Origin: Eledone cirrhosa | Taxonomy: Eukaryota | Assembly (NCBI GenBank): GCA_964016885.1 | Contig: OZ024749.1 | Location: forward strand, 31,310,001 to 31,374,000 | DNA length: 64,000 bases | Direction: 5' to 3' | Shown: piece by piece, positions 23,967 to 63,836 of the stretch | How positions within the stretch are numbered: position 1 is the stretch's first letter | Layout: each line of letters begins with the position of its first letter | Notes under the pieces: generated by a model | What the model saw: the letters and a program-made list of their open reading frames with translations, nothing else | Told to the model about the DNA's origin: nothing | The model's database searches: none | Program-made: the position numbers and the translations under genes

Positions 23967-23968
<2 letters not shown>

Positions 23969-24172
23969 CGAAGGAAATGTGGTAAGGAACCAGATGGACC
24001 ATAACGCACCAAAGTACTCAATACTTAGGGTAGTAGAGTGGGTAATAGGAACGAGTAGGACCCCGACGCATGAGCTCAAGCCGTTTGGACGGGTAATTCT
24101 CGACTAAAATCATTTTAGTCCAGAATTAGCCGTCGAAACGGCTTGAGCTCAGCCGTCGGGGTCCTACTCGTT

Positions 24173-24177
<5 letters not shown>
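23967..24177 (-). mobile_element. Family A: ~200-bp non-autonomous (TA)n-inserted element with terminal palindrome. Other copies: 12791-12988(-), 19951-20140(+), 20240-20379(-), 20582-20777(-), 23775-23935(-), 24384-24578(-), 30209-30280(+), 42823-42977(+)
   Basis: Shared sequence tgtggtaagga/ataccaggtggacc..aacgcacca.agtactc..tactt.gggtagtagagt.ggtaata; every copy is flanked on both sides by TA repeats. Confidence 0.9.
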
Positions 24178-24243
<66 letters not shown>

Positions 24244-24573
24244 CACAACAGTTAGTTCACCATCATGGTGGACTAACTGTTGTGTTGCCACTTCTACCTA
24301 ACTCGTCCCATGGACTGAGTGCTCTGCCACTATGGATATTACCTTCCAGTGTTCTACCACTCTCTCTATCTATATATATATATAACGAAGGAAATGTGGT
24401 AAGGAACCAGGTGGACCATAACGCACCAAAGTACTCAATACTTAGCGTAGTAGAGTGGGTAATAGGAACAAATAAGACCCCGACGGATGAGCTCAAGCCG
24501 TTTCGACGGCTAATTCTGTAACAGAATTAGCCGTCGAAACGGCTTGAGCTCAGCCGTCGGGGTCTTACTTGTT

Positions 24574-24624
<51 letters not shown>

Positions 24625-29112: not shown

Positions 29113-29280
29113 ATCTATATAACTGCTCTGTAAAACAACGGATGTTATTACATTGAGCTATTTATCTTACTGGTAATAAGATAGTAATTAATGACTATCT
29201 TTCACTATTTAAGGTTTGTATGAAAAATATATTACCATAAAAGGTTTTATTACATACATAACCATAAATAGTATCCTTAA

Positions 29281-29750: not shown

Positions 29751-30164
29751 TAAAATAAAGTTAAATAAAAGTCAAATGATTAAAATTTAGCTTCTTTATT
29801 ACTGCTATATATATTTGAGTGACAGCCATCTTTGGCTGTAACCTCTTCAGGCAGTTTGAATTAGACAAGTACATATGTTGTTTAGGTGTATAATATAGTC
29901 AATACTCTGATATGCCCAGTTCCTTGTTGGGTTGTTATTTCACATATGACTCCAGTTCCTCAATGAAATAACAACCCAACAAGGAACTGGGCATATCAGA
30001 CTATTGACAAGATTATACACCTAAACAACATATGTACTTGTCTATACCACACTAATTCAAACTGCCTGAAGAGGTCACAGCCAAAGATGGCTGTCACTGA
30101 AATATATATAGCAGTAATAAATGGAGCTAAATTTTAATCATTTGACTTTTATTTAACTTTATTT

Positions 30165-60953: not shown

Positions 60954-60984
<31 letters not shown>

Positions 60985-61002
60985 GTGGTTACACAACAGT
61001 TA

Positions 61003-61059
61003 GTTCACCATACCGAGAACAATTGTTTCACCTTAGCGGCTCCTCAGCTCGTAATGAAC
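61003..61059 (-). ncRNA. Type I hammerhead ribozyme in the 3' pseudo-LTR of the Penelope-like element
   Basis: Minus strand: gttcattacgag CTGAGGA gcc-gctaa-ggt GAAA caattg TT^ ctcggtatggtgaac. Stem I cgag/ctcg plus gttcatta/tggtgaac; palindromic stem III; about 160 nt downstream of the endonuclease stop. Confidence 0.85.
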
Positions 61060-61216
61060 ATGGTTATACGGAACAGGTAGGTCAACCATACGAACGCGCA
61101 TGCGCAGAAACCGGTCACTTCACAGGCAATACTAAAATGCATGCGAGAGGTGTAAGGGAGATAACTGCGAAAGACCTAAAAGTTTCTAGTTGATGAGAAA
61201 ATTATGGTGTTGTAAT

Positions 61217-61723
61217 TCAATCCGGAGCTTTGTAGTTATGCAAGAGGTGTTTTGAGACGTGTGGACAACGTGTGAAGAATCCATTTCTCGTGTTTAGGGA
61301 ATCACTATTGCATAATCTCTTTAGAATATTTATTCGTTCATCAATACATAGTCCACACGACGGATTTCCCCTTGCGTATGGTTTGGACTTAATGATGGCT
61401 TTCCATTGAATAGAGTAGTCTATACTTGAGTCCTTGAGGGACCATACCTGGCTGGCGAGTTTCGTGGATGAACGTCTGTCCGACTACCTAAAGGTCAACT
61501 GGTGGTTCAGGAAACGTTCCTTAAATCGGCCCTCCGCCATACCCACATATGATTTGACCTGCTGTGGTTCGTTTGGTCGGTTGGAAGTGACCACAGCTTC
61601 ATAGATTACAGCTGGTGTGTTGCATTGCTGTTGAAGGGTGCAAGCTTCGGGCTTACGGCAAGAGCACCCTGATAGGGTGTTGCTCCTAGGGCTGGTGGTG
61701 ATGTGGGCCTTGATGTTCTTCAT
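61217..61723 (-). pseudogene. Penelope-like (Neptune-type) retroelement C-terminus: Cys-rich linker plus GIY-YIG endonuclease, 5'-truncated, one in-frame stop
   Basis: ORF 61484-61723 reads CSCRKPEACTLQQQC..VIYEAVV..KSYVGMAEGRFKERFLNH. Reading through the TAG at 61484-86 the same frame continues STKLASQVWSLKDSSIDYSIQWKAIIKSKPYARGNPSCGLCIDERINI..LNTRNGFFTRCPH to TGA at 61217. This matches the PLE GIY-YIG motif series (VIY..YVG..R..H..CxLC..E..LN..CxH), with the Cys linker typical of Neptune. Confidence 0.9.
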
Positions 61724-62050
61724 GTAAACTTGGCCAGATTACAGAACTAAACAATATATGTTAAAACCAAACAAGATTTGAACTCAGAATTTCAACGAAT
61801 GCTCTAGCAATTTGGCAAAGTCGCAACCATAACTATGTAATTTGCATATAAAACAGCAATACAATGAAATGATCATAAAGTTTTGTGAGCAAATGGATCA
61901 CATGGGCGACTTTTTCTCTTTTAATATGTTATCTATTTTAATTATATTTATTCCTGTTAGAACTTAAGCAAAATAATCTTTGTGGAAGCGAAATAATCTT
62001 TCTTGAATTTACATTTGCTTTAATTATAATTGAAGAAGCAAACACATTCC

Positions 62051-63268: not shown

Positions 63269-63313
<45 letters not shown>

Positions 63314-63317
63314 ATAT

Positions 63318-63750
63318 ACGATATTAAACAAATGGAAACTATATTTATATTTATAAAACCATATTTATTTCGTTATATATATTTCTGGGATATCATATTA
63401 AAAATATGTTATGCCTTCCTCAGACAAAATACAATACATAAGCTGTTTTATAAATAATTAGTGACATACCTTGTGATAATGCAACTTCCTTTTAAAAAGT
63501 TGATTTGGTACCAAATCAACTTTTTAAAAGGAAGTTGATTTGGTACCAAATCAACTTTTTAAAATCAACTTTTTAAAAGGAAGTTGCATTATCACAAGGT
63601 ATGTCACTAATTATTTATAAAACAGCTTATGTATTGTATTTTGTCTGAGGAAGGCATAACATATTTTTAATATGATATCCCAGAAATATATATAACGAAA
63701 TAAATATGGTTTTATAAATATAAATATAGTTTCCATTTGTTTAATATCGT
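63318..63750. repeat. DNA palindrome, ~190-bp arms, reiterated centre
   Basis: Arms 63318-63506 and 63562-63750; gttgatttggtaccaaatcaac occurs twice in the centre. Confidence 0.95.
63637..63702 (+). ncRNA. Type I hammerhead ribozyme (mirror copy 63366-63431 on - strand)
   Basis: tattttgt CTGAGGA(63645-51), imperfect stem II, GAAA(63683-86) tatata TA^ acgaaata. Confidence 0.8.
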
Positions 63751-63836
63751 AAACCTACTCCAGAAACTGTTGAGTGCTTTTATATCAGTTATAAAATATT
63801 TACTCGTTGTAACCCAACAATCTTAAATAAAACTGT

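What the first reader, a model, noticed from the sequence alone, without database searches (positions are those of the whole stretch)
60981..61725. Neptune-type GIY-YIG remnant with downstream hammerhead: the candidate driver
About 168 codons with a single stop, followed by a CTGAGGA/GAAA-CAATTG-TT hammerhead and ending directly in (TA)n. It ties the ribozyme inserts to a specific retroelement clade. Its CAATTG stem III is the same as that of the 29 kb ribozyme.
Basis: partly seen in the sequence, partly recalled or inferred. Interest (0 to 1): 0.7.

Follow-up and report, generated by a model that had tools for sequence, protein, structure and literature searches.

The report
Dead Hydra-clade Penelope retrotransposon end
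This is the broken tail end of a known kind of animal jumping gene (a Hydra-clade Penelope-like element, not Neptune) with a hammerhead RNA motif predicted to self-cut; it likely landed in a TA repeat as such elements are known to do, and it shows no family link to the ribozyme at 29 kb.

Summary
In detail: a minus-strand GIY-YIG frame with one internal stop, then a type I hammerhead with CAATTG stem III, then (TA)n. The clade call is wrong. The protein has the CxCx5C linker, no cysteines between the GIY and YIG strands, and C-terminal CxxC and CxH motifs. These define the Hydra clade (Craig et al. 2021), not Neptune. Long homologues carry an upstream YRDD reverse-transcriptase motif with this endonuclease at the C-terminus. 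Public contigs show a very abundant family whose other copies continue upstream in frame at 61720 and also end in (TA)n. The stop is private to this copy, which looks dead and 5'-truncated. Hammerheads and (TA)n insertion are already published for Hydra elements, including an Octopus family. The 'driver' link to the 29 kb ribozyme is unsupported: only 11 nt of core are shared, and that ribozyme has its own high-copy family. A real tie exists to a tiny inverted pair of this family's end at 24.2 kb, with two ends 9 nt apart. This scan already noted Hydra-clade elements and hammerhead swarms on other DNA of this genome. Verdict: new family of a known kind, low interest.

The parts
60982..61720 (-). 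5'-truncated copy (739 bp) of a Hydra-clade Penelope-like element family
   Evidence: Summed contig depth 1.2e4-7.9e5 over the element against about 7 above 61738; loose ends at 61720 and at 60983
61217..61720 (-). Linker plus GIY-YIG endonuclease, the last 167 codons of the ORF, and its TGA stop (61219-61217)
61640..61666 (-). CxCx5C linker motif (CSCRKPEAC), with a fourth Cys five residues on
   Evidence: Hydra definition, alignment
61541..61609 (-). GIY...YIG core (VIY...YVG) with no cysteine between the two strands
   Evidence: Neptune rows have a Cys pair here
61484..61486 (-). Premature TAG, private to this copy
   Evidence: 99.5% of X1 depth at 61484 shows another letter (22797 of 22904); also X2, X4 and most of X5
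61346..61357 (-). Hydra-type CxxC (CGLC) just before the conserved Glu
61259..61267 (-). Hydra-type CxH (CPH) after the conserved Asn
61048..61216 (-). 3' untranslated region between the stop and the hammerhead core
   Evidence: covered by family contigs
61014..61051 (-). Type I hammerhead: 4-bp stem I, 2-3-bp stem II, palindromic stem III, GUU triplet, predicted cut after 61018
60956..60981 (.). (TA)n tract at the element's 3' end, likely the target
   Evidence: other copies also run into TA here (26 contigs in X2, 1 in X5)
61721..62050 (.). Single-copy non-TA flank at the 5' junction; supplies the ATG; no target-site duplication seen
   Evidence: depth about 7 and a contig spanning 61675-62050 without differences in X1
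24243..24294 (.). Tiny inverted pair of the same family's 3' end: short arm 24243-24263 (-) ending in (TA)n, long arm 24265-24294 (+) ending 9 nt further
   Evidence: blastn 90% over 30 nt, E 2e-5, and 100% over 21 nt

Best explanation
This is the last 739 bp of a Hydra-clade Penelope-like retrotransposon, likely written into a (TA)n tract by target-primed reverse transcription that stopped early, and likely decaying since. Shown: the endonuclease motifs, the same-strand hammerhead motif, the family boundaries, other copies ending in (TA)n, and the private stop. Inferred from related PLEs: a full-length family member made an RT-endonuclease protein; the endonuclease nicked TA-rich DNA; RT started at one of two fixed internal sites 9 nt apart just 3' of the hammerhead; synthesis broke off inside the linker and was joined to non-TA DNA. 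The hammerhead is predicted to be a weak motif needing a dimer or protein help. The copy is a passive product, not a driver.
For: Motifs match the Hydra definition point by point. By eye, the published Hydra-1_Obim endonuclease shares GCSCR, CNT.A..Y.A.V.SNR, YVG, LA..VW.LKD, C.LC..ER..IL and CPH. Of the 150 best phmmer hits, 110 have strict CxCx5C, 142 CxxCxxE and 125 the N...CxH pattern; 0 of 121 with a parsable GIY..YIG span have two Cys inside. In 9 of the 10 hits of 450 aa or more a YRDD motif lies upstream of the match; full-length ones have DKT/DKS, not DKG. Contigs going past 61720 read in frame as the KLGYSC linker motif (19 contigs in X2, 1 in X4, hand-translated), matching KLSYGC/KVSYSC in Hydra rows. 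Of 15 near-fixed differences from other copies, 11 change the residue and 4 do not; of 7 sites polymorphic among copies, 5 are silent. Two ends 9 nt apart occur at 24.2 kb, and one X1 contig piece starts at 60991, the short-end position. Two internal RT start sites producing a tail were shown in vitro for a Poseidon element.
Against: No full-length copy of this exact family was recovered: no genome is held, and Logan contigs are short. Pfam gave no family for the query or for 12 hits, so the GIY-YIG and RT names rest on motif comparison with the published alignment. No tree with reference PLEs was built. The 5' junction is not in TA and shows no inverted arm. TA adjacency of one copy is weak alone: 7.6% of random non-TA positions lie within 40 nt of a TA tract. 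X1 and X2 are one sample and may be the window's source. Substitution counts use 22 of the 27 coding rows shown, out of 90 rows in all, 40 shown.
Confidence: 0.92

Rival explanations
1. It is a Neptune (or Nematis/Naiad) element.
For: Neptune is also C-terminal EN+, bears hammerheads and has a Cys-rich linker linked to microsatellite bias.
Against: No CX2-5CxxC and no Cys between VIY and YVG, whereas all four Neptune rows show both. The 14 of 150 hits matching the CX2-5CxxC pattern do so at the C-terminal CxxC (11), outside the match (2) or just before VVY (1). Naiads have an N-terminal endonuclease and lack canonical hammerheads.
Confidence: 0.03
2. The family's protein mobilised the 29 kb insert and the other hammerhead inserts of the window in trans.
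For: All nine hammerhead-like motifs checked lie 37-213 nt upstream of a TA tract (background median 937). Several are inverted pairs. Retrozymes are proposed to ride PLEs. The CAATTG stem is shared.
Against: No similarity outside 11 nt of core. The 29 kb family has a different core and its own two ends at 29121 and 29282. Six independent loci show five different stem III sequences, and an unrelated sea-anemone family has ACAA-GT-TTGT, so the match is cheap. Published Octopus genomes hold other TA-targeting PLEs (Hydra-1_Obim, Naiads), so TA targeting does not single out this family.
Confidence: 0.1
3. The copy was inserted longer and lost its 5' part and 5' TA flank later by deletion, rather than by truncation at insertion.
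For: The 5' junction is in non-TA DNA, with no duplication and no inverted arm.
Against: 5' truncation is the norm for PLEs. No microhomology is seen between the flank and the family's upstream letters (by eye). The empty site was not available.
Confidence: 0.2
4. A domesticated stand-alone endonuclease gene starting at the ATG at 61723.
For: An in-frame ATG opens a 168-codon frame.
Against: The ATG is flank DNA; the frame has a premature stop; private changes are mostly non-silent.
Confidence: 0.01

Closest known systems
Hydra clade of C-terminal EN+ Penelope-like elements (Craig et al. 2021, PMC8557442; sections 11-12, passages, and supplement parts 1, 2, 7, 52-55 read)
   Same: CxCx5C linker, no CCHH, CxxC and CxH around Glu/Asn, C-terminal endonuclease, sense hammerhead near the 3' end, (TA)n ends (26 of 27 listed families marked (TA)n).
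   Different: This family is not among the six novel consensi or the listed hammerheads. Its stem II has only 2-3 pairs against 3-7 in the published table. The two ends seem 9 nt apart, against the 30-40 bp tail given for PLEs in general.
Hydra-1_Obim (Octopus bimaculoides; same paper, supplements)
   Same: Closest published endonuclease by eye, including SNR after the VIY strand and CPH..K.LL.N.K at the C-terminus; complete 2507 bp, (TA)n, hammerhead ending in T.
   Different: Different hammerhead (CTGAAGAG, 7-bp stem II, ACCA-A-TGGT stem III), different 3' UTR and many residue differences: a separate family. Identity was not computed.
Neptune clade PLEs
   Same: C-terminal GIY-YIG, hammerhead in the pLTR, microsatellite bias.
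   Different: Neptune has CX2-5CxxC, a 20-35 residue spacer and CCHH; none is present here.
Minimal type I hammerheads of PLEs (Cervera and De la Pena 2014, PMC4209133; parts 1-2 of 4 read)
   Same: Type I topology, short palindromic stem III suited to dimer folding, predicted low activity.
   Different: Stem II is shorter than the long (6-8 bp) stems described there.
Poseidon element PAc of Anolis (Frangieh et al. 2024, PMC11167929; parts 1-2 of 4 read)
   Same: Works-like model: AT-rich nicking, two internal RT start sites giving a tail, protein-assisted hammerhead not needed for insertion in vitro.
   Different: Another clade; none of this has been shown for a Hydra element in the papers I read.

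Membership tests
Hydra-clade PLE | CxCX5C linker before the GIY-YIG core | tested here: met
   CSCRKPEAC, residues 25-33
Hydra-clade PLE | CCHH motif absent | tested here: met
   No Cys between VIY and YVG; 0 of 121 parsable hits have two
Hydra-clade PLE | CxxC and CxH flanking the conserved Glu and Asn | tested here: met
   CGLC 128-131 and CPH 158-160
Hydra-clade PLE | Endonuclease at the C-terminus of an RT ORF | tested here: met
   Stop and 3' UTR follow; upstream loose end continues in frame as the linker motif; long homologues have YRDD upstream in 9 of 10. The family's own RT was not seen.
Hydra-clade PLE | RT with DKT and RWK motifs, grouping with Hydra | tested here: inconclusive
   RT is missing from this copy. 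Homologues: N-terminal DK[TS] in 6 of 10 long hits; RWK in 1 of 10, RWR and RWP in two others. No tree built.
Hydra-clade PLE | Canonical sense-strand hammerhead near the 3' end | tested here: met
   motif only, cleavage untested, stem II short
Hydra-clade PLE | Insertion into (TA)n | tested here: met
   This copy, the 24.2 kb short arm, and loose ends of 26 contigs in X2 and 1 in X5; no genome-wide fraction
Neptune-clade PLE | CX2-5CxxC linker | tested here: not met
   against Neptune rows
Neptune-clade PLE | CCHH motif with two Cys inside the GIY-YIG core | tested here: not met
Naiad/Chlamys | N-terminal endonuclease followed by CxC and RT; no canonical hammerhead | tested here: not met
   Endonuclease is followed by stop, UTR and hammerhead
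Type I hammerhead ribozyme | Core CUGANGA, GAAA, UH with stems I-III | tested here: met
   Rfam gathering search found none in the window
Type I hammerhead ribozyme | Self-cleavage | not testable with these tools
   Monomer hammerhead fold is predicted disfavoured (-1.5 against MFE -5.7 kcal/mol, probability 2e-4); the stem III palindrome self-pairs at -6.4
Non-LTR retrozyme | Non-coding tandem units, each with a hammerhead | tested here: not met
   Single coding-derived copy; no tandem unit in the sequence read

The most novel reading that the evidence does not exclude
This Hydra family is the autonomous partner of a much larger population of non-coding hammerhead mini-elements that share its last ~54 nt but differ upstream, and its RT starts at two fixed sites only 9 nt apart. 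Basis: summed depth steps up about tenfold over the last 70 bp; 59 and 64 contigs leave the element at 61035 into a variant hammerhead 5' half with unrelated upstream letters; the two-ended pair at 24.2 kb. That would give a matched driver and passenger pair for testing PLE trans-mobilisation. The passengers would not be the 29 kb family.
Probability: 0.25. Interest if true: 0.45.

Novelty: new member of a known kind. Interest (0 to 1): 0.2.

Why it matters
Modestly. It adds a very abundant, apparently uncatalogued Hydra-clade family that Pfam and Rfam both miss, so such copies go unannotated. It corrects the clade assignment. A full-length member with its short-ended derivatives could serve to test how Hydra-clade enzymes choose (TA)n and RT start sites, which the papers read leave open. 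The combination of endonuclease, hammerhead and (TA)n is itself already published.

Tried and rejected
No genome is held for the window, so the proposed genome tBLASTn could not be run. Pfam: no family for the query or 12 hits. Rfam gathering: 0 matches. Word-indexed protein searches found nothing, longer (143 candidates) or near length (7 candidates); the exhaustive phmmer search did. Cluster look-up of 10 hits gave no useful names. No RNA holder was listed. Search of earlier findings by sequence: nothing. Six short motifs from the window's hammerheads searched in the Craig supplement: five had no hit and one a chance hit in a Chlamys consensus; line wrapping can hide matches, and Repbase consensi are not in that file. 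tblastn of 8 homologues, 5 of them with RT regions, hit only this locus in the window. C->T against G->A asymmetry 15 against 4, p 0.06, not pursued. No structure was predicted and no language-model look-alike search obtained, so fold-level evidence is absent. Published Hydra proteins were compared by eye only. Rejected: Neptune label, ATG as a start, CAATTG as a family marker.

Full report
Observation. The minus strand carries a frame from an ATG at 61723 to a TGA at 61219-61217: 168 codons with one internal TAG at 61486-61484. After 169 nt comes a type I hammerhead motif, CGAG / CTGAGGA / GCCGCTAAGGT / GAAA / CAATTG / TT / CTCG (61051-61014). The sequence runs into (TA)n at 60981, 36 nt past the predicted cut. 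A descriptor found 7 such motifs in the window and none in any of 60 block-wise dinucleotide shuffles; I wrote it after seeing the motifs, so this shows non-randomness, not an unbiased count. Rfam and Pfam found nothing.

What the protein is. phmmer against 1.84 billion representatives gave 4502 proteins at E<=0.001 and 1578 at E<=1e-10; the best is E 6.5e-36, 45% identity. In the ten hits of 450 aa or more, nine have a YRDD motif upstream of the matched region, and the full-length ones have DKT or DKS near the N-terminus. Their RT regions show the same motifs as published Hydra-clade ORFs, such as CRLINP and GLYRDDG (by eye). Pfam names none of 12 hits tested, so the domain names rest on that comparison.

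Clade. Craig et al. 2021 (PMC8557442, section 11) define Hydra elements by a CxCX5C linker in place of CX2-5CxxC, loss of CCHH, and CxxC and CxH motifs around the conserved Glu and Asn. They also report canonical hammerheads and insertion into (TA)n in almost all families. The window protein has CSCRKPEAC, no Cys between VIY and YVG, CGLC before the Glu and CPH after the Asn; it has no CX2-5CxxC. The four Neptune rows of their Fig. S2 all show the CxxC linker and the internal Cys pair. Among the 150 hits, 110 have strict CxCx5C, 142 CxxCxxE and 125 N...CxH; none of 121 parsable cores has two Cys. Fourteen hits match a CX2-5CxxC pattern: 11 at the C-terminal CxxC, 2 outside the match and 1 just before VVY. 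The Neptune label therefore fails two defining features. The closest published family by eye is Hydra-1_Obim from Octopus bimaculoides, but its hammerhead and 3' UTR differ, so this is a separate family. That the host is a cephalopod is my inference from this likeness and from earlier AI notes, not a tested fact. I could not see Repbase or Dfam, so the family may be catalogued there.

The family. Six public runs hold part of the stretch. Laid at 80% likeness, runs X1 and X2 (one sample, possibly the window's source) gave 5911 and 6405 contigs. Summed depth was 1.2e4-7.9e5 across the element in X1, against about 7 above 61738; this is no copy number but marks a very abundant repeat with a sharp edge. 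Other copies leave the window at 61720, and their next letters read in frame as the KLGYSC linker motif (19 contigs in X2, 1 in X4). So the ATG is flank and the copy is cut inside the linker. At the 3' end, 26 contigs in X2 and one in X5 also run into (TA)n. The stop is private: 99.5% of X1 depth shows another letter. Of the 27 coding rows shown (40 of 90 rows were printed), I used 22 and dropped 5 with under 2% share in X1. Of 15 near-fixed differences 11 are non-silent; of 7 polymorphic sites 5 are silent. This is the pattern expected of a dead copy from a family that was under selection.

How it likely works. From related PLEs I infer target-primed reverse transcription: the endonuclease nicks TA-rich DNA, and RT begins inside the RNA. 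Frangieh et al. 2024 (PMC11167929, parts 1-2) showed two internal start sites for a Poseidon element, which explain the optional tail, and found its hammerhead protein-assisted and dispensable for insertion in vitro. The window offers a matching footprint: at 24243-24294 an inverted pair of this family's end, the short arm stopping at GTTGTGT in (TA)n and the long arm 9 nt further, where the 61 kb copy ends. One X1 contig piece also starts at the short-end position, 60991. This rests on two loci and one contig. The hammerhead is predicted weak: the monomer fold has probability 2e-4, while the ACAAUUGU palindrome self-pairs at -6.4 kcal/mol, as in the dimeric model of Cervera and De la Pena 2014 (PMC4209133, parts 1-2). 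At 61040 nearly all other copies have a letter that leaves only two Watson-Crick pairs in stem II. The 5' junction lies in single-copy non-TA DNA without duplication, so later deletion cannot be excluded.

The driver claim. The 61 kb and 29 kb 3' modules align only over GAAACAATTGT (score 22; shuffles 17.7+-2.1; 17 of 300 as high). By contrast the 8.9 and 63.6 kb modules, which are one family, score 170. The 29 kb motif has a CCGAAGA core with no variant of 20% or more listed there, an 8-bp stem II, and its own abundant family with TA-joined ends at 29121 and 29282. Six independent loci show five stem III sequences, and a sea-anemone family has a similar one. In favour of some shared machinery, all nine motifs checked lie 37-213 nt upstream of a TA tract, against a background median of 937, and retrozymes are proposed to ride PLEs (bioRxiv 10.64898/2026.07.22.740005, part 1 and passages). 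That points to PLEs in general, not to this family. No RT lies in the window.

Most novel reading left. Depth rises about tenfold over the last 70 bp, and 59 and 64 contigs leave at 61035 into a variant hammerhead 5' half with unrelated upstream letters (agreement 0.61). These may be non-coding passengers sharing the family's end, or simply sister subfamilies and very short truncations. I could not separate these.

Novelty. Three searches on clade, hammerhead and host returned Craig et al. as the main source; it already joins Hydra endonucleases, hammerheads and (TA)n, with an Octopus example. Earlier notes of this scan report Hydra-clade elements, two-ended insertions and hammerhead swarms elsewhere in this genome; I reached the clade call before seeing them and do not count them as support. 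Verdict: new member of a known kind; interest 0.2.

Noticed in passing
window:28813-29283: Inverted pair (151 bp, 98.7%) of a separate high-copy family whose hammerhead core reads CCGAAGA (U4C) apparently family-wide, with two TA-joined ends at 29121 and 29282, about 160 nt apart.
   Followed up: partly
window:8814-8984 and 63306-63751: Two copies (about 80% alike) of another hammerhead family; the 63 kb one is an inverted pair between TA tracts.
   Followed up: partly
window:4761-4961: Inverted pair (95%) with a hammerhead in each arm, long stem II (10-11 bp) and 7-nt stem III.
   Followed up: no
window:29752-30166: Long inverted pair (89%) with a hammerhead at 30066, ending in (TA)n.
   Followed up: no
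window:52055-52109: Hammerhead motif with TGCGCA stem III and a long imperfect stem II; no relative in the window.
   Followed up: no
window:60338-60533: Perfect 98-bp inverted arms enclosing a (TA)n tract.
   Followed up: no
window:60905-60960: About 50 bp of unique sequence between two TA tracts just past the element's end; may be the end of another tiny insertion; no match in the window.
   Followed up: partly
window:60983-61720: Differences from other copies lean to sense-strand C->T (15) over G->A (4), p 0.06; not significant.
   Followed up: partly
window:23968-24616: A repeated family with internal fold-backs (23968-24174 and 24385-24576) flanks the 24.2 kb mini pair inside TA tracts.
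   Followed up: no
window:48305-50118: 55-bp tandem array, 33 copies, 95% matches.
   Followed up: no
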